From positions 1 through 64,000 of the forward strand of contig JBEWZL010000168.1 of NCBI GenBank assembly GCA_045837725.1: a stretch of 64,000 bases of DNA, written 5' to 3'. The notes under the pieces are model-generated. The model made no database searches. It was not told the origin of the DNA and worked only from the letters and a program-made list of their open reading frames with translations. The position numbers and the translations under genes were made by a program. Origin of the DNA: Vermamoeba vermiformis (taxonomy: Eukaryota). Positions 1 to 50,424 of this stretch are shown here, one piece after another; the first letter of the stretch is position 1, and the number at the start of each line of letters is the position of its first letter.

Positions 1-2032
1 GAGTGAGTCGCCGATTTTGTCCCAAACCCCTGATTTTGTCCCAACCGATTTTTTTGCGTAATTTCGCAAATTATTTTACCAACGGCATTCAATAAGTTGC
101 TTCGCACACGAACACGACAGCTTGTTGTTCAATAGTATTGATTTTATTTATAATTTTTCTGACCAGTAATGGCGAAGTATGAAAACGAAATTCATGAGAT
201 CAATCAACGGATTTCAGAAAACGGCGAGACAATTAGCGAAATTATTCGCGATTTGACGCGGAATAGTCCCAATAAATTCGAAACACTTCGCAAAGCCTAC
301 CAGCGGGCTCAAAAGAATAAAGAGAAGAAACATGGAAATCAGATGCTCACCAATCAGCAAGAAAAAAGACTATGCAGCATCATTTTAGCTTTTTCAGCAA
401 GCGGAATAGCTCTGTCGAGAAGTGTATTCATTAGTTTTGTACGTAAGATATTTGAGCTCCCTGAAGACTGGCGAGGCGATCACTGGTTTAGCAATTTTCT
501 GATCCGCAATTCAGATCGCATCTCTCACGCGTTTGGTAAAGACCTCGACATGGGACGTGTCAATTCTGTCACTATTGATATTATTGAGTCATTTGTGAAA
601 GAATACAAGAGGCTACTAGAAGAGAAAAGTTACACGGACGACTTCATCATCAACGCTGACGAATCTCCCTGTAAATTTACTGACGGAGAAAGTTCGAAGA
701 TTCTAACGAGTGCAAATTCGAAAAAGCAGGGTAGATTGAGTACTCCCAAGAGTCATCTACGCACTATACTTCCATTTGTTGCAGCATCTGGTCGTGTTTG
801 GATGATAGTGCTCATCTACAAGGACATGTCACAAAATGGCAACGAAAAGAAGAATTCGATTCCCGTCACTACAGAGCTGAGATATACTCGCAGCACTATA
901 CCAACTTATTATGCCACAACAGCTAATGGCTTTATTACAAATGAGTTGTGGAAGCAAATAATAGCGCGACTCGTGGAGCGACTTTCAGCGTTCAAGCAAG
1001 GACAACCAGCTCTTTTACTTCTTGACCGCCACTCCACCCACCTGGAGTTGACCAGCATCAACTTGCTATTAGATTCTGATATACAGCCCCTGTACCTACC
1101 AGCACATACAACTCATTTGCTTCAACCTCTTGACGACGTGATTTTTGGCTCGTTCAAACGCAAGATGCGTGTCAAGAGAGACCTTGAAAGAATGCGACGG
1201 CTCCTCACTGGAGAGACCCTGCACTCTGTTATTGAAGACATTATCACGGAGGAGAAGTCCAATATATTTGATAAAGAGGTCATTAAGGCAGGATTTCGAC
1301 ATACAGGCATTTGGCCATTCGATAGTGCACTTATCAGCAAGAAATTTCAGAACATGTACATGTTCGACACAAAACCTCAACTGCACACCAGTGAAGATGA
1401 AGAAGTTAAAGCTATGGCACTGATACTTAAGGAGGCCTTGATACCTAATCAAACCAAGACTCCTATCAAGCGAGTACGTGCCAATGAGCGGAATAAATTG
1501 GTGACTGGCCAGCAGTTGGTGATCTATGCCCGTGAGAAGGAGGAAAAAGAACTGAAAGAGAAGGAGGCTAAAGAACTTGCGAAGAAAGAAAGAGAGGACA
1601 AGAAGAGAAAGAGAGAAGAGGAGAAAGAAGAGCGACAAGAGCTCGTCAAGCGACGCAAACTTGACAAACAGAGTGATGTGATTAGTAGGACGTGCTCACC
1701 TTGCCGTCGTATCTATACCAAGAAGCACAAATTTTGGGTCTGCACCTCATGTAATAGCTATCAAGTATGCAAGAAGTGTCAAAAACGAGATATTCATGAT
1801 GAGCATGCTGCTGAATGCGGATCTGATCTGAGCGAAGAAAGATCCGATCTGGCCAGTGATGAAGGCGAATTGCACGATTAAATCAACTGTAATTCAAGTA
1901 TTCACTTATTATTTATCTATTTGTATTGAAATCACTCCATTAAATAAGTATTAAAATAAATTATTGTTAAATTTTAGTCCAAAATCGTTTGGGACAAAAT
2001 TGGGGGTTTGGGACAAAATCGGAGACTCACTC
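1..2032 (+). mobile_element. Complete pogo/Fot1-like (Tc1/mariner superfamily) DNA transposon
   Basis: 52-bp terminal inverted repeats at 1-52 and 1981-2032 (4 mismatches), each with two copies of ATTTTGTCCCAA. TA follows the right TIR (2033-2034). One transposase ORF lies inside. The left TSD is outside the window. Confidence 0.95.
169..1881 (+). CDS. pogo-family DDE_1 transposase (DD35D) with C-terminal Cys-rich zinc finger
   Basis: Intronless 570 aa. Catalytic motifs NADES, LLLDRHSTH and HLLQPLD, with 35 residues between the second and third Asp. Also GFRHTGIWP, a K/E-rich coiled coil and a CxxC..CxxC..CxxC tail. Confidence 0.93.
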   Translation: MAKYENEIHEINQRISENGETISEIIRDLTRNSPNKFETLRKAYQRAQKNKEKKHGNQMLTNQQEKRLCSIILAFSASGIALSRSVFISFVRKIFELPEDWRGDHWFSNFLIRNSDRISHAFGKDLDMGRVNSVTIDIIESFVKEYKRLLEEKSYTDDFIINADESPCKFTDGESSKILTSANSKKQGRLSTPKSHLRTILPFVAASGRVWMIVLIYKDMSQNGNEKKNSIPVTTELRYTRSTIPTYYATTANGFITNELWKQIIARLVERLSAFKQGQPALLLLDRHSTHLELTSINLLLDSDIQPLYLPAHTTHLLQPLDDVIFGSFKRKMRVKRDLERMRRLLTGETLHSVIEDIITEEKSNIFDKEVIKAGFRHTGIWPFDSALISKKFQNMYMFDTKPQLHTSEDEEVKAMALILKEALIPNQTKTPIKRVRANERNKLVTGQQLVIYAREKEEKELKEKEAKELAKKEREDKKRKREEEKEERQELVKRRKLDKQSDVISRTCSPCRRIYTKKHKFWVCTSCNSYQVCKKCQKRDIHDEHAAECGSDLSEERSDLASDEGELHD

Positions 2033-4105: not shown

Positions 4106-6972
4106 CTAGAGTTTTTTCGCTACTATCTCGCAAATGTCAGCCATACTCTGCAACGCAACCACAAATGTTAGCATCAGCAGTCAAAGACTAGACGATTATT
4201 GACTTACAGGTCTGTCGTTTGGATCAAACTTCCAGCACATCTGCATCAACTCCCTCAACGTTGGATCGCAATCGTCAGGAATTGCAGGGGTCAATCCTTC
4301 ATCACTATAGCATCGCATAATATATTAAAACCTCATTGCCTATAGAATGAAATTCTTACCGAATTTTACAAGCCACTTCAATTTGATTTGATCCCTGGTG
4401 CGGCTCGTGGCCATTGACGATCTCGCTAACTTTTAACGTTCAATTTTAGTTATGATAATGATAATAATACTTGCGGTATACTTACTAACGATGCCGAATG
4501 TCCAAACATCTGATTTTGTACTGTAAGCCATCGAATTGATACTCTCAGGTGCCATCCAGCGAATAGGACCAATGTTCGAGTTCGTTTGACCTTGTGCTTC
4601 TTCTTTCAGCACTCGAGACATGCCAAAGTCGCTGATCTTGGGCTTGCCTTTATGAACCTTTGATATCAAGCGTTAGGCTTGTTTCGGCGATTCACTAACT
4701 GCGAACTGATCAGTACTTACCAAGACATTTCTGACGGCCAAATCACGATGCACGATGTTGTGTGAGTGCAAATGATACAAGCCAAAGGCAAGACCTTTCA
4801 CAAGCTCTCGTTGTTGACTCTTCTTGATGTTCTGCTTGAACATAAGACCGTCGAGACTGCCACCATCGCAGTACTCGAGCACAATGTACGGCACATCTGA
4901 GTCAACACTCACACCGTATGTGAGCACAATGTTGGGGTGAGGCGGAAGACCACTGAAGTCATGTTAGAATGATCTTGTGCGGCCTTGTCGATAGCGACGG
5001 TCAGTACTTACGCAGTGAGCTTTGCTTCAGCAAGAAATGCTTCAGTGTCTGATGATCTCGTGCTCGATTTGATTGCGACATCTGCACCACGCCAGTGACT
5101 ACAAAGAACGAGTTAAACCTTGCACATCGTCACAGTACAGCACTGGCTTTGCTTACCCAATGAACACTTTGCCAAAGCTTCCTGCACCAATTTCTTTGTC
5201 GAACTGAAGCTCTTTGTACGGAATGAGCATCTTCGATGAAATGTCTTCAGCTCCCACGTCTGAATTTCTGGAAGGAAGCACATCGTAATTCGTGCCACCG
5301 CTCTTGCCCTCAGGATCTTCAGGCTTGATCTGTTTCTTTCGCAAGAAGAACACCAACAAAAAGATGCCAGCACCGACTGCTGCACCGACCAATGATGTCG
5401 TCAGTCCTGCTGTCAATGCGACGTTATCGGGTGTAGAACCATCAACAACTGCTTGTGGTGCTACCGTCGGCGCAACACCTGTCCCAGGCGTTCCACTCGT
5501 TACTGGAGAGCTCGCAGAAGGGGCCGTGCTTGGAGCGGATGGAGTAATGGTAGACTTTGGAGGAGGTTGTTGATAGTTCCAAAAGTCGTAACCAGCCCAG
5601 TGTGGCACGACGACAGTGTCTTGGAGACACGACATGACAAACCAATCTGAATCGACTGACCGTCTCTTTTCAGCAATCACTTTGAAGTTGTCTTGTGTGT
5701 CCAGTGCTACGAGAACGTAATCTGATGCCGAGGGGATATTGTCTGGCGATAAGAGCAGCACCAAAGATGTGTTCATAAGACACTGCGTTAAGTACGTAGA
5801 TCCGGGAGGAAAACCATTGTCGGCGTAAGTCGAATTCAATTCGATCAGGTTATTGGGATCAGCTGATGAAGTGCAAAGAAAGTTCGTTAGGCCTTTGCCG
5901 CAGCCCCACCACTCGTCGTTATCGTTCGCATCCAGAAAAAATTCATTCGCCTCGACTTTAGCGGTTTGCTCGCACAAAGTAGAGCTACATTTAAATATCA
6001 AAGTATAGCCGGAGTAAATGGGGAGCGCTACCCAAAATCGGTTGTCTAGAGGAAAAAACGTTAACGAATCCGCTGTGAAAACAAATGGAAGTGCTTACTA
6101 TTAACGTATCTAACATATTTGTTGGTAGTATTTTGGTCCGAGATACCAGTAAAGTAGGACATAGGCCCATTCAAGGACAAAGTATTGTTAAGGTACGACG
6201 TCACGTTGTAACCGCCCTAAAAAGGAAAGTTTGATAAATTATAACTAAAATCTTAAATCATTAACGCCTTACGCCCGAAGCTATAGTGACTAAGCTGTCG
6301 CCTGACCACACAACCGACGCTGCCCAATTATCTTGGTTCGGAACGACGGGAATAGGCGAGGACATGTATTGGGGAGTAGCACCGTTGCCCATTCCAAGAA
6401 CTGCGTACATTATTTGACCTCCTTGAACCTAACAAAAATTAGATTTATAATTATTACGCCATCCTGGACCAATTGTATGACTTTAATAACCAAAATTGAA
6501 TTTTCATTTTTTTTGGATTTTGAGCCGTTTCTCGTTAAGACCTGCTTACCGACGATATGGAGCCGTATGAGCATGGTGAATAAGGAGCACCTCTGATAAC
6601 CCAATGCGCAACGGAGTCCGCATTAGGAGGGTAAAGAGGGGCTTGCGAGGGTTCAACTCTGATGGAAGAAATACCAGTCCTCGAATTATAGGTGACGGTT
6701 TTTTGACTTGCTTGCTGGCCTGAATCAATACCGCAGGCCAAATAAATCCCGGTATCAGGATCGAAGGAAACAAGATGAATTTCTCGAAGCCAAGAGGAAG
6801 GATAACCCGCCAAGTTGGCGTTTTGAGTCGTAATATAGGTGAACTCTTTAAAATAAATTTAATTAATTTTGAATAAAATACCGAGGAAGAAATGTAGCGA
6901 CTTACTTTGGGATTGAACGAGCGTTATCGCCAACAAACAAACGAACAATGCTCGGGACAACACATTCCGCAT
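4106..6972 (-). CDS. Receptor-type tyrosine kinase(-like), copy A, multi-exon
   Basis: Signal peptide [22 protein letters not shown], ectodomain, S/T/P stalk and TM ([16 protein letters not shown]). Kinase motifs [31 protein letters not shown] and SDVWTFG are spread across GT-AG exons. Confidence 0.9.
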
Positions 6973-8131: not shown

Positions 8132-10548
8132 CTAAAGCTTCTTCGATACGATATCACAAATATCAGCCATACTCTAAATATGATAAATATTCGTCGTTAG
8201 AATAGAAACCTTTCAAACGCTTGACATCTCACTTACAGGTCTTTGGTTTGGATCCATCTTCCAACACATTTGCATCAACTCTTTCAGCACAGGATCGCAG
8301 TCGTCAGGAATAGCGGGAGTAAAACCTTCGTCACTGTAATATATTGTTAGTGCAATTGTAAATAAATAATAGCTCCTCTTACCGAATTCTGCAGGCGATC
8401 TCGAGTTGATTTCCGTCTGCATGTGGTTCGTGTCCATTGACAATCTCGCTGACTATCAACGATATGTTTAGTCGTTGCACTCGCTAACAGATTGAAACAA
8501 CTTACTGACGATACCAAAGGTCCATACATCCGATTTGGTGCTGTACGTCATTGACTTGATGCTTGGTGATCAGGAATAGGAATTTGTTTTTTTTTTTTTT
8601 TTTTTTTTGTTTTTTTTTTTTTTTTTTCTCGATTTGATTGCGACATCTGCACCACGCCAGTGACTACAAAGAACGAGTTAAACCTTGCACATCGTTCACA
8701 GTATCAGCACTGGCTTTGCTTACCCAATGAACACTTTGCCAAAGCTTCCTGCACCAATTTCTTTGTCGAACTGAAGCTCTTTGTACGGAATGAGCATCTT
8801 CGATGAAATATCTTCCATTGGTGCAGCCATCGCTGAGTAACTGGTCGTTGAATTTCGGGATGGTGGAAGCGCATCGTAGGCTAGTTTGTTGTCACTACCG
8901 CTCTTGCCCTCAGGATCTTCAGGCTTGGTCTGTCTCTTTCGCAAGAAGAACACCAACAAAAAGATGCCAGCACCGACTGCTGCACCGACCAATGATGTCG
9001 TCAGTCCTGCTGTCAACGCCACGTCTGGTGCTGTTGGAGTGTTCGTGATGAAATCTTGCGGCGAAGTTGGCGCGGTTGGCACAGGAGAGTCAGCAGGTGT
9101 TATATCCGATACTGGAGAGCTTGTAGGGGCCGTGCTTGACACGGGGGTTGTAACGACAGGCTTTGGAGGAGGTTGTTGATAGTTCCAGAAGTCATAGCCA
9201 GTCCAGTGTGGCACGACAACAGTGTCTTGGAGACACGAAATTGCAAACCAATCTGTATCGGCTGTGCGTCTCTTTTCATTCACGATTGAAAAGTTGCTGG
9301 GAATATCGAGTGCCAGCAAGACGTAGTCTGTGATAGCGTTGTCCTTCGAAGATAAGAACAGCATCATGGTAGTGTTCATACGGCACGTGGAGATATGAGT
9401 GCCGGGTGGAGGATAATTCGTGTCGGCGTAAGTCGAGTTTAAAAAGATCAAATTGGTCGGATCCGCTGATGAAGTGCAAAAGTAGTTCGTTAAGGTTTTG
9501 CCACAGCCCCACCATTCGTCGTTATCATTCGCATCCATCCAAAAGTCGGCCGTGCCTTCAATTCGTAAATTTTGTTCGCAGTAAGTAGAATTGCACTTGT
9601 ATAACAAAGTGTAGCCAGCCGTAATAGGAAGTATCACCCAGAAGCGGTCGTCTGGAATTTAAATTAATCCAAAACGTGCAATAGAAAACGTCTTACTTAC
9701 TGTTAACGTATCGAACAATCTTATTTACTGCGTTCGAGGCAGGCGTATCTGCGAGATAAGAGAATGGTCCGGGCAAGGATAAAGTATTGTTGAGGTACGA
9801 GGTTAAATTGGATCCGCCCTAAAAAGGATATCAATTTGAATAACCGTCATCTTTACGAATCAAACGGCAAAGAAGTCTTACTCCCCAAGTGATAGTAATC
9901 AAGCTCTCACCCGACCACACAACTGACGCTCCCATGTTATCTTGGTTCGGGACGACGGGAATAGGCGAGGACATGTATTGCGGAGTGGCGCCGTTGCCCA
10001 TTCCAAGGACTGCGTACATTATTTGACCATCTTGAACCTAAAAAAATTAGATTTATAATTAAATTTAAACGTTTAACGCTAAATTAAATTTAAATTTAGT
10101 GGATCATTTGGGAATTCTTACCGCCGAAATTGCACCATATGAACACGGTGAATAAGGAGCACCTCTGATAACCCAATGCACCACGTTCTTCCACGACGGA
10201 GGATAAAGAGGATCTTGGGAGGGCTCTCTCGTGAGAGTAACGTCGCCAGTCTTCGGGTTATAAGTAATAGTCTTTTGACCTGCGTAATAGCTTGAATCAA
10301 TAGCGCAGGCCAAATAAATGCCGGTATCAGGATCGACCGAAACAAATTGTATCTCCCGAAACCAGACGTATTGATAGTTCAAGAGTTCATTTTGAGTTGC
10401 AATAAACGTAAGCTCTATTAAAACAATTATTATTAGTTTTTTAGACTAAGGAAAGAGGTAAAATGTAGCGCTTACTTTGGGATTGAACGAGTGTTATCGT
10501 CAAACAAACGAACAACGCGACGGACAATCGAGGCAAGAAGCTCCACAT
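8132..10548 (-). pseudogene. Receptor kinase copy B (tandem paralog), kinase core missing as assembled
   Basis: Same exon structure and near-identical TM/juxtamembrane DNA as copy A. The segment equivalent to ~4544-5063 (HRD, DFG, APE) is replaced by a ~64-nt mostly poly-T tract at 8564-8627. This may be an assembly defect. Confidence 0.6.
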
Positions 10549-18007: not shown

Positions 18008-20436
18008 CTAAGCGGCAACGTGTTCAGTTTCACGCTCGTAATGGCGGTGAATAGCAATAGCGTTGAATATCTCTGATCCAAATGTCACAGGACCTTCTTT
18101 GTTAATAGCCAAAGCAGATTCAGCGAAGTTCTTAATGGTAACGACGCCTAAGTCACTGACGACTCCGGAGGATTCGTTGGCCAACTTGACGTTGATCATT
18201 TGTTGCATAAAGAGCTTTTGAACCAAGTCAACGGCCTCGTCAATGGCAGCGATAGGCTTGCAGTGCTTGTAAGCCTCAACGATAAAAGCCTTGGCATTGC
18301 CAATGTTCTGCATCGCGTCAATGCTGGACTTGCCACCAACAATGACAACGGCGTCAAACATGACACTCTTCGTCATAGAGAAGCCAAATTGAGCAGTGGT
18401 CTTAGTGCCGTCATTGCCAATAATAGGACCCTTGTTGGGGCCGACAACGAAGTTGACTGCGCCTAAGCCAGCCATAGCAGCTTGAATAGCGGTGAGTTGA
18501 GGGCTGTTGAAGCCGGGACCAACGATGTAAGCAATTCGGCGTGACTTGATTGAGTCCTTGGCAGTAATGTTTTGGCTGACAGCAGGGGATTTCCTCTCGT
18601 AAGGTTGGCCAGCGAATGACTTGGGTGGCTCAACGCCGATGCCGAGGGCAACCTTGCAGGCCAAATTGAAGTCAATGTGGTTCAATCGATCAATCATACG
18701 CTCGCGAACGCCCATATCATCAACGTGACCGAGTTCGAAAATAGCTGCGTCGGTCAAGTGTTGCTTTTCCCAGCCCGACAAACTGTTGAAGAACATGATG
18801 GCTTGGTTGTAGTGCTCACCAAACTTGGGACCACGCGCACGAATTCTGTCGCCTTGAATGGGCACGCGTGAAGGAGTGTATCCTTCGTTGACCTTAGCAA
18901 CAGCCGGGCATCCGAATCGATTAGGGGTGTAGTTGACAGTTCCGCGGTTGATCGCCATTCTGTGGAAACCATCGCGTTGGTTGTTGAAGACAGGGCACAC
19001 GGGTCTGTTGATGGGAATCTCTTGGAAGTTAGGACCGCCCAGACGAGTGAGTTGAGTATCTTGGTACGAGAACATGCGGCCTTGGAGCAAAGGGTCATTG
19101 CTGGCTTCAATGCCAGGGACCAAATGTTGCGTGCAGAATGCGACTTGCTCCGTTTCAGCGAAGAAGTTGTCGGGGTTACGGTTCAAAACCATTCTGCCGA
19201 CGCGTCTGACGGGGACCAACTCTTCAGGGATAATCTTAGTCGCGTCTAACAAATCAAAATCGAACTTGTGCTCGTCTTCTTCATCGACAATTTGCAAGCC
19301 TAACTCCCATTCAGGGTAGCTGCCGCTCTCAATGGCGTCCCACAAGTCTCTTCTGTGCCAGTCGGGATCAGCACCGACGAGCTTTTGAGCTTCGTCCCAA
19401 ACGAGTGAGTGCGTGCCGAGAACAGGCTCCCAGTGGAACTTGACGAATCTGCGCTTGCCTTGAGCGTTGACAAGAATGAACGAGTGAACACCAAATCCTT
19501 GCATCATGCGATAGCTGCGAGGAATCGCGCGATCGGACAATGCCCACATAATCATATGAGAAGTCTCGGGGGTCAACTACAAAAAGGATTGTTAATTAAC
19601 AGTACTACTATAACCCGCTTGAGATCGTACCGAAATGAAGTCCCAGAAGTTGTCGTGAGCAGTTTGGGCTTGAGGAACTTCGTTGTGCGGCATTGGCTTG
19701 CCAGCGTGAATGATGTCAGGGAACTTAATGGCGTCTTGAATAAAGAAGACGGGAATGTTGTTACCAACGAGATCGAAGTTGCCTTGAGGGGTGTAGAACT
19801 TTGTAGCGAAACCACGAACATCTCTTACGGTATCAGCAGATCCTATTAATCACGATTAGCGATTATTCGATAATTAGGCATGCAGATCGATGCGATACTT
19901 CGCGATCAGGGATAGAAATTTCGTAGTGCGAAGTCGCAGATATTTAATAGTTTGCAGTATCTTAAATTGCATGAAATGGCAATAAAAAGATGTCATAAGA
20001 GGCCAAGCTTAATTAAATTACCTCTTGATCCGAGTACCGTTGAGAAACGAACGAAGACAGGTGTCTTCAGTGACGGGTCGCATAAGAAATGAGCAGTGGT
20101 ATACTCGGCAAGTGATTCGTAGACTTGGAAGTAGCCATGGGCTGCAGATCCTCTTGCGTGCACGACACGTTCGGGGATGCGTTCGTGATCGAAGTGGGTC
20201 ATTTTCTCGCGGAAGTGGAAGTCTTCCAGGAGAGTAGGACCACGTTCACCAGCCTTAGTACTATCATCGGTATGCGTAATACGAGTACCAAAGTTAGTGC
20301 TAATGGTATGGCCGGGCTTGGCATCTGTGACAACAAAGTTCTCCAGATCTTTAGTCTTGGCGTCTTGAGTCATAGCGGTAGTCATTTGCTCGACCTTCTC
20401 TTGCGCGCTATGAATGGCCTTCTTGATAGTATCCAT
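18008..20436 (-). CDS. Large-subunit heme catalase (KatE/HPII, clade 2) with C-terminal DJ-1/GATase-like domain
   Basis: [27 protein letters not shown] heme-ligand motif and tail FDAVVIVGG...EAYKHCKPI. Two introns. Confidence 0.95.
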
Positions 20437-47992: not shown

Positions 47993-50424
47993 CTACGGCT
48001 CAGGAATGTCGTCAAAGTTTAGCATCACGTTCTCAAACCGCGGGGCCTTCTTAGCACTTGCAGCTTTCTTCTTCACGGGCTCTTTTGGCGGTGAAGGAGT
48101 TGCGCGCAGGGTTGTACGAGATTGTTTCGCGGGTGAGGCAATCGAAACACCTTTCTTCGCAGGTGCCATGGTGAGCTGAGGTGTCGAGGGTGTCACAGGA
48201 AAAGACGCTGCTTGAGGAAGGCTTGGCAAGGTCGGCTTTTGGATCACTATTGGCGCGATCTTAACGGCCTCGTTAATGACCTCATGCATCGAAGACTTGA
48301 GTCCAAACACGTCCAAATCACCTCGTGGGATCTATCAAAACAATTAGGCGCGAAGACAAAAAGTAGAGAAATTTGTAAGAAAAAAAAGCGGTGATTGAGT
48401 CACTGGAAGAATACTACATCGGAAGCGGTGCTTCGAATGCATGCCCCGATGCATCTCGCATGCCCTAATAGACGCTCTACCAATTGAGCTAGACCTCCTA
48501 GGGATTGGAGATCCCGGGTTTCGATCCCGGTACCTTCTATCTTGCAGAAAGGACACGCGAAGTTATTTCCTCCCTCAGACATTGGAGCACCGTAAAATTC
48601 ACAACCAAAGAATTCCGAGACTCACGGAGTCTGACTCAAACGCTCATTCGTACCTGCTTTAGCTCTTTGCGCACCTTCTCTAATAACTGTGGATCGAGGT
48701 TGTCATTCACAGCGGACAGCGACTGTGGCAACAATTGCTCTTGTGACACCAATGCCTACGCGCAAGATTAGAGTAATTGGTTAGTATTACTCGAGTCAAA
48801 CGTGCCTTCATCAGAGAGAGTGCTGCTGTTGCGATCAGGAATCAAGGCAAAGTGCGTTTGTACAACATTCGCCGAACGTAGCTCGAAGTTGTAATGAGAA
48901 CTGACCAACATGAAGCTCTCCTATCAAAGCGATTAGCTAATTGATGTGACGCCAGTGAGGAGCACGTACCTCATCGCTGAGTATATTCACTAGGGCTTCT
49001 AATTCCTCCGAGCCGTCTCGCGCAGTTAGCACGAATGACTGATAGAAATGTCAATTTCGAAGTTGTTTATGATGCTTCAGTACCATTCCGTGGAGCAGAT
49101 CTTCACTCAGAGAGTTCAATGGGCATATCTGTTTGATGGTCATTGTTGGATCACTGTTCGTCTTGGCGAGCAGATCAGTTTGTGAGCACGGCAATGTTAT
49201 CTTGCCGAGCCTAATTCCTCGCGTAATGTCTTCTTCATCAAGCGTGGACTTGAGAATAGGACACGTCTTCTTGTCATTAGCACTCGAAGTGTCTGCCTTG
49301 CTACCCAAAGATGCCTGATGGCACGAGCAGATCTGAGCGTCATTAAGTAATTGGTAAATGAATGCTAAATACTATACTTACTGCAACAGGTTCGATCATG
49401 AGCGAAGACACTACTCTCGGTCTAGCTTTCAGCCGCCACGATTGAGAACCAAACCCGTGTAGAGTGAAACACGATCTCCTCTTTGAGACAATACTCCTCG
49501 ACGCGCTCTTTGAAGTACCGCTCGAAAGATGCAGCATCTAATATTTGAACAGTTACGGCATGGTATTTAAACGATATTTGAGTACCAGTCCCGATCCGGT
49601 GCAATCTGCAGTTTGGAAATTCTCGTAGTGCAACGGCCCAGTTCGCCAATGGAATGCTGACCTCTGTGAACTGTCTCTCATCGGGGCATATCTCCAACGA
49701 GTTGATGTTGACAAAGTCCACGAGCACTTGTTGTTGTTTGAGCTTCTACAAAGGTATAGGGTTAGCGCTGATCTCGGATCCTATATTCTCTTAGAACTTA
49801 CATCTAGAGATGATATTACGTCAGGAGATTGTGAAGGGCACTTTGTTGAAAGCCAAGCTAGCGTTCCGACAACTTTCATCTTTTGGGACGCCTTCTCGAT
49901 CAGCTTCGAAACGTGCCTAAGCAGATCGACCTCTTTTTCAAATTAACACAATTAGAACAAAGTCACTATGTCATTAATTACGAATCGGATCTGAAATAAG
50001 CGTATTTTAACGTACCTATACTAGCAGAGGCCTCTCCTTGTTCGACTTTGATAGCATCGATTGCTTTGTGTACCGCGTGGATATCGAACCTCTTCGGTTG
50101 CAGAAGGACCTATTGATATTTTGTTAGAGTCGTAGAATTGCTTAAAATAATGAATATTGAAGAAATAAGTTTAAAATAATTGTTGAATGAGGCGAGAAGT
50201 ACGACCGCTACCTGAAGCTTCTGGTGCACCAGGATGACTGCCAATAGGTTGTAGCCCTTAGTCTCTTCGGACACTATCGCGATAGAGTTGACATAAGTCT
50301 TCAGCGCGGCTTTAATATTGTCTAGGATCATCTGATGAAGCTCCTTCTGATCTGCAGTCAGATGTCGCATATCGACCGCGACGATCTCGAGAAAGGACCC
50401 TAGTTCGTTAGTTGATGCTTCCAT
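47993..50424 (-). CDS. Multi-exon hypothetical protein, weakly M1AP (meiosis 1 arrest protein)-like; host of the intronic ncRNA
   Basis: Consistent GT-AG exon chain. The C-terminal run IKQICPLNSLSEDLLHG...THFALIP...ALVSQEQLLP...LEKVRKELKQ recalls M1AP from memory only. Confidence 0.4.
48380..48387 (-). terminator. Possible Pol III oligo-T terminator
   Basis: T8 on the minus strand right after the last paired segment. It could also be part of the intron pyrimidine tract. Confidence 0.45.
48468..48547 (-). tRNA. Circularly permuted tRNA(-like) core: 3' half, 7-nt linker, 5' half. Anticodon ambiguous (GCA/Cys by numbering; body Ala-like)
   Basis: Minus strand reads CTGCAAG-ATAGA-AGGTA-CCGGG-ATCGAAA-CCCGG-GATCTCC-A, then ATCCCTA, then GGAGGTC-TA-GCTC-AATTGGTA-GAGC-G-TCTAT. 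Acceptor, D, anticodon and T stems all pair at canonical spacing. Confidence 0.8.

What the first reader, a model, noticed from the sequence alone, without database searches (positions are those of the whole stretch)
48332..48653. Oversized intron folds into a ~260-nt RNA with a tRNA-mimic domain (YrlA/Y-RNA-like topology)
Seen: this intron is 322 nt against the usual 50-60 nt, and pairing continues outside the tRNA core. It includes TTGAGTCA (48639-48632) with TGACTCAA (48402-48395), GGAGGAA with TTCTTCC, hairpins AGACTC-cgt-GAGTCT and GCATCGG..CCGATGT, a possible kink-turn (CTGA / AGTGA) and a terminal T8. Known: bacterial YrlA Y RNAs have the order T arm - closed acceptor loop - D arm on a stem formed by the RNA ends, and bind Ro60 through a GUCCGA/UUGAC bulged helix. 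The outer helix here reads GUCAGA/GUGAC, which is similar but not identical. Inference: the product may be an unprocessed tRNA-mimic ncRNA rather than a decoding tRNA, possibly a new eukaryotic RNA class.
Basis: partly seen in the sequence, partly recalled or inferred. Interest (0 to 1): 0.8.

Follow-up and report, generated by a model that had tools for sequence, protein, structure and literature searches.

The report
Back-to-front tRNA inside an intron
An unusually long intron of a protist gene carries an inserted, tightly folded RNA segment whose core is a tRNA written back half first, a layout described so far only in a few algae and one archaeon; here it is probably not a working tRNA and not a Y RNA.

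Summary
The minus-strand intron 48653-48332 is 322 nt, against about 46-83 nt for the other introns of this gene. On the gene's sense strand it folds into a long clamp capped by a tRNA-shaped head.

It is an exact circular permutation of one tRNA: positions 32-73, a 7-nt linker, then positions 1-31. Rejoined in a script, ARAGORN calls it tRNA-Cys(GCA). The pairing between the two flanks exceeds chance (0 of 300 shuffles).

A related, low-depth metagenome contig has the same intron without about 235 nt, so this looks like a lineage-specific insert.

It is not a YrlA or Y RNA. Rfam scores 28 bits against a cut-off of 69, and there is no Ro-binding motif.

It is not convincingly a working permuted tRNA either:
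- there is no bulge-helix-bulge (BHB) motif;
- the junction would lie at 31/32, a position not on record;
- it has A73 with a Cys anticodon, A54, and A15/A48.

No RNA data could be obtained.

Best reading (0.45): a permuted-tRNA cassette inserted into an intron. Its clamp keeps the splice sites at short-intron spacing, and the head is a non-decoding tRNA-like module.

The scan has noted permuted tRNA-like modules before on other DNA (phages, a DPANN archaeon), but none in this genome.

The parts
48332..48653 (-). Spliceosomal intron of an uncharacterised protein gene (GT at 48653, AG at 48332), 322 nt
   Evidence: frame shift fits 322 nt; the intronless relative P0121 reads across the junction.
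48403..48637 (-). Insert of about 235 nt, absent from a related short (about 75 nt) version of the same intron. The boundaries are good to a few nt.
   Evidence: tables 5, 5c and 8: X3 record 3 joins 48363 to 48638 with 27 other letters in between. This is a single contig at depth 3.4 with 27 letters on its shorter side, so it needs caution.
48506..48547 (-). tRNA 3' half, positions 32-73: anticodon-loop letters CTGCAAG, anticodon-stem 3' strand, 5-nt variable loop, T arm (loop ATCGAAA), acceptor 3' strand, A73
48499..48505 (-). 7-nt linker closing the acceptor stem (the 'acceptor loop')
48467..48498 (-). tRNA 5' half, positions 1-31, plus one U that could serve as position 32: acceptor 5' strand, U8, D arm with G18G19, anticodon-stem 5' strand
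48542..48549 (-). 8-nt bulge on the leader strand holding the anticodon-loop letters (GCA at 48545-48543)
48550..48561 (-). Leader strand of the 12-bp clamp helix, which stacks directly on the anticodon stem
48455..48466 (-). Trailer strand of the 12-bp clamp helix (3 G.U pairs)
48567..48573 (-). Leader strand of the 7-bp clamp helix (GGAGGAA)
48405..48411 (-). Trailer strand of the 7-bp clamp helix (TTCTTCC)
48632..48639 (-). 5' arm of the 8-bp outer helix and inverted repeat, at the insert boundary
   Evidence: I1
48395..48402 (-). 3' arm of the 8-bp outer helix. This arm is older intron sequence.
48641..48645 (-). 5' arm of the outermost 5-bp helix (GAGCG); older intron sequence
48386..48390 (-). 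3' arm of the outermost 5-bp helix (CGCTT)
48619..48631 (-). Small hairpin GACTC-CGT-GAGTC at the 5' end of the insert
   Evidence: A loop change at 48624 is seen in relatives.
48575..48618 (-). Peripheral stem-loop of the leader. It is not kept in close relatives: 2 of 3 stem changes break pairs.
48415..48453 (-). Trailer hairpin with a T-loop-like ATTCGAA loop
48380..48387 (-). T8 run, part of the older intron's pyrimidine tract; a possible Pol III stop
48343..48347 (-). Branch-site-like CTAAT, 12 nt before the 3' splice site
   Evidence: read by eye

Best explanation
A normal short intron has acquired an insert of about 235 nt. Read on the gene's sense strand, the insert is a circularly permuted tRNA cassette: the tRNA 3' half, a 7-nt linker and the tRNA 5' half, gripped by complementary flanks.

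Shown:
- The permutation is exact.
- The clamp is stronger than chance and works better on the sense strand.
- The insert is missing from a related sequence.
- No BHB motif is present.
- Several tRNA consensus or identity positions are off.

Inferred:
- The RNA is made as part of the pre-mRNA intron. A Pol III product ending at the T8 is less likely.
- The clamp zips the insert shut, leaving only about 4 + 50 unpaired nt between the splice sites. That is the size of an ordinary intron in this gene, so splicing still works.
- The head is a tRNA-shaped module that is not joined at the anticodon loop and does not decode.
- At most, RNase P and tRNase Z would open its acceptor loop, as happens with permuted pre-tRNAs and with Mycobacterium smegmatis YrlA.
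For: - Exact permutation: 21 of 21 stem pairs form across the two halves. In-script rejoining gives an ARAGORN tRNA-Cys(GCA) for 2 of 2 junction choices, while the unrearranged window gives 0 tRNAs.
- Clamp: the cofold gain is -23.4 against -7.9 +/- 3.6, 0 of 300 shuffles. The part inside the insert gives -17.7, 1 of 300.
- Strand: the minus strand folds to -94.7 and the plus strand to -79.0 kcal/mol. Five of the 35 clamp pairs are G.U.
- Insert: X3 record 3 skips 48364-48637.
- Outer helices: they use older intron sequence, and the unpaired remainder is 4 + 50 nt, against 46-83 nt for the other introns.
- No BHB that would leave a 7-nt anticodon loop.
- A73 with GCA, although U73 is a major Cys determinant (PMC9976931 passages). 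A54 and A15/A48, against the U54 and R15:Y48 expected of elongators (PMC3978253 section 4).
Against: - No RNA evidence of any kind exists for this locus.
- The short version rests on one low-depth 151-nt contig laid at 85% likeness, with only 27 letters on its shorter side. The tool warns about such joints.
- The splicing ('zipper') role is an inference from distances only.
- An exact one-period permutation with perfect stems is what selection on a permuted tRNA would give. A passive insert needs a special origin, such as a copy of a working permuted gene elsewhere or cDNA of a circular tRNA.
- In an organism-B contig, all 7 differences lie outside 48520-48597. This weakly suggests constraint on the core and inner leader. 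The region was chosen after seeing the data; a uniform spread would give about 0.02.
Confidence: 0.45

Rival explanations
1. Stand-alone tRNA-mimic ncRNA. A 200-260-nt RNA, either intron-derived or made by Pol III and ending at the T8, stays unjoined at the anticodon. It works through its tRNA elbow and closed acceptor on a long stem, by analogy with bacterial YrlA.
For: - The domain order is the same as in YrlA, and the YrlA model aligns to the tRNA-like part at E 6.5e-4 in a 601-nt search.
- The clamp is significant and favours the sense strand.
- The features that argue against decoding (A73, A54, no BHB) do not count against a mimic.
- One metagenome locus, L110, from an unrelated GC-rich organism has a similar layout: a permuted head, a closing helix and a T6.
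Against: - 28 bits against the cut-off of 69, with nothing outside the tRNA-like part.
- No Ro/Rsr motif.
- A15/A48 breaks the Levitt pair that YrlA RNAs keep.
- The T8 predates the insert.
- A T4 at 48597-48594 lies inside the leader.
- The element is absent from a related sequence.
- The L110 fold is not better than shuffles (z -1.03), and I could not show that L110 is homologous.
Confidence: 0.2
2. Working circularly permuted tRNA-Cys(GCA) gene. The leader and trailer are cut off, the ends are ligated into a circle, RNase P and tRNase Z open the acceptor loop, and CCA is added.
For: - 3' half, 7-nt linker and 5' half lie on one strand. The linker is within the known range of 1-74 nt.
- The cloverleaf is perfect after rejoining.
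- U8, A14, G18G19, U33, purine 37, G53:C61, U55C56 and A58 are present.
- A 12-bp leader/trailer helix abuts the anticodon stem.
- A T run lies downstream.
- Permuted Cys(GCA) genes exist in Ostreococcus and Micromonas (Table 1 of PMC3978253).
Against: - No strict or relaxed BHB gives a 7-nt loop.
- The junction would be at 31/32 or 32/33. All 34 listed genes use 15/16, 20/21, 37/38, 50/51 or 59/60.
- Eukaryotic endonucleases are tuned to 37/38 (PMC3978253 section 8).
- A73 instead of U73, A54, and A15/A48.
- It lies inside a Pol II intron and is absent from a relative.
Confidence: 0.15
3. Decaying remnant of a tandem tRNA gene pair or array. The inner halves of two neighbouring copies only look permuted, and the outer halves have decayed.
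For: - The word CTCCAAT followed by 5-7 nt and then GGAGG occurs twice, at 48587-48569 and 48510-48494 (D6).
- The 7-bp helix GGAGGAA/TTCTTCC resembles the acceptor stem.
- The trailer hairpin has a T-loop-like loop.
- At 60-70% thresholds ARAGORN makes weak collinear calls that reuse the intact halves.
- The tandem-duplication model is in print (PMC3978253 section 10 passages).
Against: - The leader is no more like the 5' half, and the trailer no more like the 3' half, than shuffles are (1985 and 1023 of 2000 shuffles as good).
- The 'units' do not align better than shuffles (z -0.5, -0.1, -0.9).
- Neutral decay would not spare exactly one period with 21 of 21 pairs.
- The low-threshold ARAGORN run also calls obvious junk.
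Confidence: 0.1
4. Mobile element of a foldback, MITE-like or introner-like kind, with terminal inverted repeats and a tRNA-derived core.
For: - A presence/absence difference bounded by an 8-bp inverted repeat.
- The insert begins GT and ends AG on the sense strand.
- The short version has a 10-nt palindrome at the site (table 5c).
Against: - No second copy in 64 kb.
- No target-site duplication seen by eye.
- One arm of the repeat is older intron sequence.
- The boundaries are uncertain by a few nt, so GT..AG may be chance.
Confidence: 0.07

Closest known systems
Circularly permuted tRNA genes (Cyanidioschyzon merolae, Ostreococcus, Micromonas, Bigelowiella nucleomorph, Thermofilum pendens; Soma 2014, PMC3978253)
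   Same: - The 3' half lies upstream of the 5' half on one strand.
- A short intervening sequence (7 nt) closes the acceptor stem.
- Leader and trailer pair next to the junction.
- A T run lies downstream.
- The rejoined halves give a full cloverleaf, and Cys(GCA) is among the known permuted tRNAs.
   Different: - There is no BHB motif.
- The break is at the 5' side of the anticodon loop (31/32 or 32/33) instead of 37/38 or the D- or T-arm sites.
- The clamp is long (12 + 7 + 8 + 5 bp, with extra hairpins).
- A73, A54 and A15/A48.
- It lies inside a spliceosomal intron.
- Nothing in the window points to an alga, though the taxon was not determined.
YrlA, the bacterial tRNA-like Y RNA (Rfam RF02553; Chen et al. 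2014, PMC4201824)
   Same: - The order is T arm, closed acceptor-like stem, D arm, on a stem made by the two ends.
- The closed acceptor of M. smegmatis YrlA is cut by RNase P and receives CCA. This is the fate I infer here.
   Different: - 28 bits against a gathering score of 69.
- No GNCGAAN0-1G motif.
- No compensated 15:48 pair.
- About twice the length.
- A eukaryotic intron context.
- A full anticodon stem and anticodon-loop letters are retained.
Split tRNA genes of Nanoarchaeum equitans (mentioned in PMC3978253; the helix length is recalled, not checked here)
   Same: The two tRNA halves are held together by a long leader/trailer helix next to the anticodon region.
   Different: There the halves are separate genes, and a BHB at the junction is cut and ligated. 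Here there is one transcript and no BHB.
Structure-assisted splicing of long introns in short-intron organisms ('zipper' stems in yeast introns; recalled, no paper read here)
   Same: Complementary segments near the 5' splice site and the branch region shorten the effective distance between them.
   Different: Here the stem encloses a tRNA-shaped cassette. No splicing test exists.

Membership tests
Circularly permuted tRNA gene | 3' half upstream of 5' half on the same strand, joined by an intervening sequence of 1-74 nt | tested here: met
   Positions 32-73 at 48547-48506, a 7-nt linker, and positions 1-31 at 48498-48468. The range comes from PMC3978253 Table 1.
Circularly permuted tRNA gene | Rejoined halves give a complete cloverleaf | tested here: met
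   ARAGORN calls tRNA-Cys(GCA) for 2 of 2 in-script junction choices, and 0 tRNAs in the unrearranged window.
Circularly permuted tRNA gene | BHB motif (strict or relaxed) at the leader/trailer junction | tested here: not met
   An enumeration of all leader/trailer registers found none that leaves a 7-nt anticodon loop. The best strict motif lies at D-loop 20/21. It is matched by 26 of 400 shuffles, and its product is not called a tRNA at default settings.
Circularly permuted tRNA gene | Junction at a position on record (15/16, 20/21, 37/38, 50/51, 59/60) | tested here: not met
   The junction would be 31/32 or 32/33.
Circularly permuted tRNA gene | Eukaryotic tRNA consensus: U8, R15:Y48, G18G19, U33, and U54U55C56 in elongators | tested here: not met
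   U8, G18G19, U33 and U55C56 are present. But position 54 is A, and 15/48 is A/A (consensus).
Circularly permuted tRNA gene | Identity set fits the anticodon (Cys: GCA plus U73) | tested here: not met
   The discriminator is A at 48506. The U73 requirement comes from PMC9976931 passages.
Circularly permuted tRNA gene | Upstream TATA-like element and downstream T stretch | tested here: inconclusive
   An AT-rich AATTTTA lies at 48599-48593, and the T8 at 48387-48380. However, the T run predates the insert, and the AT-rich word contains a T4.
Circularly permuted tRNA gene | Mature tRNA and circular intermediate detectable | not testable with these tools
   The two RNA runs laid gave 0 reads and 1 read on the whole 601-nt stretch, exons included, so they are no test.
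YrlA / Y RNA | Reaches the Rfam gathering score | tested here: not met
   28.0 bits against 69, model positions 23-86 of 114 only. No family in the window reaches its gathering score.
YrlA / Y RNA | Ro60/Rsr-binding motif near the 5' end (GNCGAAN0-1G; GGUCCGA in vertebrates) | tested here: not met
   0 matches in the 322-nt intron. 419 of 5000 shuffles contain the YrlA motif by chance.
YrlA / Y RNA | tRNA-like domain in the order T arm, closed acceptor-like stem, D arm | tested here: met
YrlA / Y RNA | Ro60/TROVE protein encoded by the organism and bound to the RNA | not testable with these tools
   No whole genome is held for this window.
Box C/D-type kink-turn | Box C (RUGAUGA) paired with box D (CUGA) next to a terminal stem | tested here: not met
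   One CTGA at 48578 and no box C in the intron.

The most novel reading that the evidence does not exclude
A eukaryote with no sign of being an alga carries, inside a spliceosomal intron, a functional RNA gene built on a circularly permuted tRNA. One possibility is a permuted tRNA matured at a new junction (31/32) without a BHB motif, which would imply an unknown cutting and joining route. The other is the first eukaryotic counterpart of the bacterial YrlA-type tRNA mimics. The presence/absence difference would then catch such a gene soon after its birth or insertion.
Probability: 0.3. Interest if true: 0.8.

Novelty: new variant of a known kind. Interest (0 to 1): 0.5.

Why it matters
A 2014 review and a 2026 review (PMC3978253, PMC13578239) know permuted tRNA genes only from a few unicellular algae, a nucleomorph and one archaeon. 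All of those have a BHB motif at the junction.

An exact permutation in another kind of eukaryote would matter in two ways:
- If the RNA is processed, it would widen the range of the phenomenon. This case has a different break point, no BHB, sits inside a Pol II intron, and is missing from a close relative.
- If the RNA is not processed, it would give a dated example of how such layouts arise.

It also offers a simple test of whether RNA clamps let short-intron organisms tolerate large intronic inserts.

Tried and rejected
- **RNA evidence:** no RNA holder was listed for the stretch. The two RNA runs labelled with the same organism gave 0 reads and 1 read on 601 nt, exons included, so they are no test.
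- **Own genome:** none is held.
- **Earlier notes of the scan:** nothing on this genome, its relatives or this sequence.
- **Other copies in the window:** none.
- **Metagenome scan** with a T-loop...D-arm pattern.
  - 114 loci have 5 or fewer complementary acceptor pairs. I read them as tandem tRNA pairs, mostly an A54-type tRNA followed by another tRNA.
  - L017 and L031 carry one sequence with 6 of 7 acceptor pairs but a T6 between the genes.
  - Only L110 looks permuted.
- **L110:** there is no clean anticodon stem and the fold z is -1.03. It shares no context with the window. Outside the parts fixed by my pattern, the alignment looked no better than chance to me, though I ran no shuffle test on it. 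It is kept as a lead only.
- **Viral scan:** 0 of 20 loci permuted.
- **Prokaryote genome scan:** 0 of 28 permuted. L143 and L162 have 6 of 7 acceptor pairs but no T stem.
- **Tandem-duplication relic:** the alignments are not better than shuffles.
- **BHB at D-loop 20/21** with the leader at 48591-48574: matched by 26 of 400 shuffles, and the 93-nt product is not called a tRNA at default settings.
- **ARAGORN with introns and low thresholds:** only junk-level calls.
- **Kink-turn and Ro motif:** absent.
- **Host protein family:** no Pfam hit for P0121. One exon has a sub-threshold Ku beta-barrel hit (18.7 bits against 25).
- **Taxon:** not determined. The catalase in the window is 91% identical to an unnamed EukProt transcriptome protein. 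The nearest named eukaryotes are Mucoromycota, at 52-58%.
- **Papers:** searches for 'permuted tRNA' with 'amoeb', with 'spliceosomal intron', and for 'YrlA / tRNA-like / protist' listed no paper whose title or abstract start points to a comparable case. I read only the listings.
Full report
**What is there**

The finding lies on the minus strand. An intron starts GTACGA at 48653 and ends GATAG at 48332, 322 nt in all. The reading frame changes from ...KELKQ to IPRGDLDV... exactly as a 322-nt gap requires. P0121 is a 543-aa relative encoded on an intronless 1808-nt contig, and it reads ELKQ|VPRGDLDV across the same point.

The other gaps between tblastn pieces of this gene are about 83, 56, 46 and 49 nt, and a neighbouring intron read by eye is 46 nt. 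So the intron is real and about five times oversized.

The host protein has no Pfam family.

**The tRNA core**

ARAGORN finds no tRNA in the window, and Rfam finds nothing at gathering scores. Read 5' to 3' on the minus strand, the middle of the intron is:

| Coordinates | Content |
|---|---|
| 48547-48541 | anticodon-loop letters CTGCAAG |
| 48540-48536 | anticodon-stem 3' strand |
| 48535-48531 | 5-nt variable loop |
| 48530-48514 | T arm, with loop ATCGAAA |
| 48513-48507 | acceptor 3' strand |
| 48506 | A73 |
| 48505-48499 | 7-nt linker |
| 48498-48492 | acceptor 5' strand |
| 48491-48474 | U8, A9, and a D arm with G18G19 |
| 48473 | G26 |
| 48472-48468 | anticodon-stem 5' strand |

This is one tRNA, cut at the 5' side of its anticodon loop and written back half first. 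No letter is missing or duplicated. All 21 stem pairs form, 12 of them between the two halves.

When a script rejoins the halves at either of the two possible points, ARAGORN calls tRNA-Cys(GCA) both times. The nearest known kind, though, is the circularly permuted tRNA gene.

**The clamp**

The two flanks pair in collinear blocks:
- 12 bp (48561-48550 with 48466-48455). On the trailer strand this helix stacks directly on the anticodon stem. It leaves the anticodon-loop letters as an 8-nt bulge on the leader strand.
- 7 bp (48573-48567 with 48411-48405).
- 8 bp (48639-48632 with 48402-48395).
- 5 bp (48645-48641 with 48390-48386).
- 3 bp outermost.

Pairing the flanks gains -23.4 kcal/mol against -7.9 +/- 3.6 in 300 dinucleotide shuffles, none as good. 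The part inside the insert gains -17.7, with 1 of 300 as good.

Five of the 35 clamp pairs are G.U. The minus strand folds 15.7 kcal/mol better than the plus strand. The structure therefore belongs to the RNA of the gene's sense strand.

**Relatives and the insert**

Fifteen public runs hold part of the stretch, and none is on record as RNA. I laid four of them.
- An aquifer metagenome (X3) has near-identical contigs that carry the element.
- X3 also has one 151-nt contig, about 88-90% alike, that is collinear with the locus but joins 48363 to 48638 with 27 other letters in between. That intron would be about 75 nt and would lack about 235 nt (48637-48403).
- The boundaries coincide within a few nt with the 8-bp inverted repeat. 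The short form has a 10-nt palindrome and a T6 there.
- This rests on a single low-depth contig whose shorter side is 27 letters, so I treat it as probable, not certain.
- A contig of 'organism B' (X15) covers 48520-48696 with 7 differences, none in 48520-48597. Five cluster in 48598-48624, where 2 of 3 stem changes break pairs of a peripheral stem-loop. That is weak evidence of constraint on the core. It also suggests that the peripheral stem-loop is not a conserved structure.

**Is it a permuted tRNA gene?**

From sections 4, 5 and 8 and passages of sections 6 and 10 of PMC3978253, the defining features are:
- the inverted order of the halves, with a 1-74-nt intervening sequence;
- a BHB motif at the junction;
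- junctions at 15/16, 20/21, 37/38, 50/51 or 59/60;
- the ordinary tRNA consensus;
- a TATA-like element upstream and a T stretch downstream;
- detected circular and mature forms.

The order, the linker and the cloverleaf are met. The rest is not.
- An enumeration of every leader/trailer register finds no BHB that leaves a 7-nt loop. The geometry explains this: a BHB leaves the break at the 3' side of the loop, and here the loop letters are attached to the 3' half.
- The best strict BHB in the matrix, at D-loop 20/21, is matched by 26 of 400 shuffles, and its product is not called a tRNA at default settings.
- Position 54 is A, which the review gives for initiators only.
- Positions 15/48 are A/A.
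- The discriminator is A, although U73 is a major Cys determinant in E. coli and yeast (PMC9976931 passages).
- The T8 predates the insert.

I therefore do not file it as a working member. I give that reading 0.15.

**Is it a YrlA or Y RNA?**
- In a 601-nt search the YrlA model aligns only its tRNA-like part (positions 23-86 of 114), at 28 bits against a cut-off of 69. Any permuted tRNA would do this.
- The motif thought to bind Rsr/Ro60 (GNCGAAN0-1G, or GGUCCGA in vertebrates; PMC4201824 passages) is absent from the intron.
- The 15:48 pair that YrlA RNAs keep by compensation is not formed.
- No box C partners the single CTGA.

Membership is not supported. 'Works like YrlA' stays possible at 0.2. 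The same paper shows that the closed acceptor of M. smegmatis YrlA is cut by RNase P and receives CCA.

**Search for relatives elsewhere**

One pattern, tying the T loop to the D arm at permuted spacing, was scanned in three collections.

| Collection | Loci returned | Permuted-looking |
|---|---|---|
| Viral contigs | 20 | 0 |
| One genome per prokaryote species | 28 | 0 |

The window's own element was not among the hits. Nearly all hits are tandem tRNA pairs.

L110 comes from a GC-rich organism. It has 7 of 7 acceptor pairs across a 9-nt linker, a 5-bp T stem, A73, a closing GAGGAGT/ACTCCTC helix and a T6. It has no clean anticodon stem, and its fold is no better than shuffles. I could not show homology beyond the parts my pattern fixed.

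**How it most likely works**

Shown: an exact permuted tRNA, a sense-strand clamp, an insert in an otherwise short intron, no BHB, and off-consensus identity positions.

Inferred:
- The RNA arises with the pre-mRNA.
- The clamp, whose outer helices use older intron sequence, leaves only 4 nt after the 5' splice site and 50 nt before the 3' splice site unpaired. That is the size of this gene's ordinary introns, so the intron stays spliceable.
- The tRNA-shaped head is not ligated at the anticodon and does not decode.
- RNase P and tRNase Z may open its acceptor loop.

Where the cassette came from remains open. It could be a copy of a working gene elsewhere in the genome, cDNA of a circular tRNA (a model discussed in PMC3978253), or a reduced tandem pair. 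The recurrence of CTCCAAT, 5-7 nt, then GGAGG at 48587-48569 and 48510-48494 hints at a vestigial upstream unit. The alignments do not support this.

**Limits**
- No genome of the organism, so no tRNA-Cys gene count, no copy number and no Ro60 search.
- No RNA coverage.
- The comparative data come only from sequences 96-99% alike, plus one short-intron contig.
- The taxon is undetermined. The nearest match to the catalase in the window is an unnamed transcriptome protein at 91%, and the nearest named eukaryotes are Mucoromycota at 52-58%.
- Supplementary files of the papers were not seen. Those of PMC4201824 hold the YrlA alignments.

Noticed in passing
L110:816-1000 (minus strand of the locus): A second permuted-looking tRNA module in a metagenome contig from an unrelated organism (GC 58%). 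It has a T arm, an acceptor 3' strand, A73, a 9-nt linker, an acceptor 5' strand (7 of 7 pairs), an identical D arm, a closing 7-bp helix and a T6. It has no clean anticodon stem.
   Followed up: partly
window 48569-48587 and 48494-48510 (minus strand): The word CTCCAAT, followed after 5-7 nt by GGAGG, occurs twice: once at the real acceptor 3' end, linker and 5' end, and once in the leader. This could be the boundary of a vestigial upstream tRNA unit, but the overall alignments are not significant.
   Followed up: partly
window 48429-48441 (minus strand): The trailer hairpin ends in a T-loop-like ATTCGAA loop about 55 nt downstream of the intact D arm (A-box region). Together with the T8, this could in principle form a Pol III unit that makes only the 5' half plus the trailer. 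Not tested.
   Followed up: no
L001-L117 (for example L013, L048, L079, L087): Many marine and freshwater metagenome contigs carry a tRNA with an initiator-type A54 T loop, followed after only 3-13 nt by a second tRNA. The second is often a Lys-type tRNA or a Tyr-type one with an intron. That is, these are very tightly packed tandem tRNA genes.
   Followed up: no
window 18008-19576 (minus strand): A large-subunit catalase with a C-terminal DJ-1/PfpI-like domain, in one 522-aa open frame. Its best match is an unnamed EukProt transcriptome protein (91%). Many bacterial catalases follow at 50-55%.
   Followed up: partly
window 5153-6094 and 8720-9658 (minus strand): Two neighbouring paralogous open frames with the same layout: a Cys-rich N-terminal part, a Pro/Thr-rich linker, a transmembrane stretch and the start of a kinase domain. 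They look like a tandem pair of receptor-kinase-like genes.
   Followed up: no
window 163-1881 (plus strand): A 572-aa open frame that I guessed to be a transposase of a DNA transposon, from the look of its sequence (recalled likeness). No family search was run.
   Followed up: no
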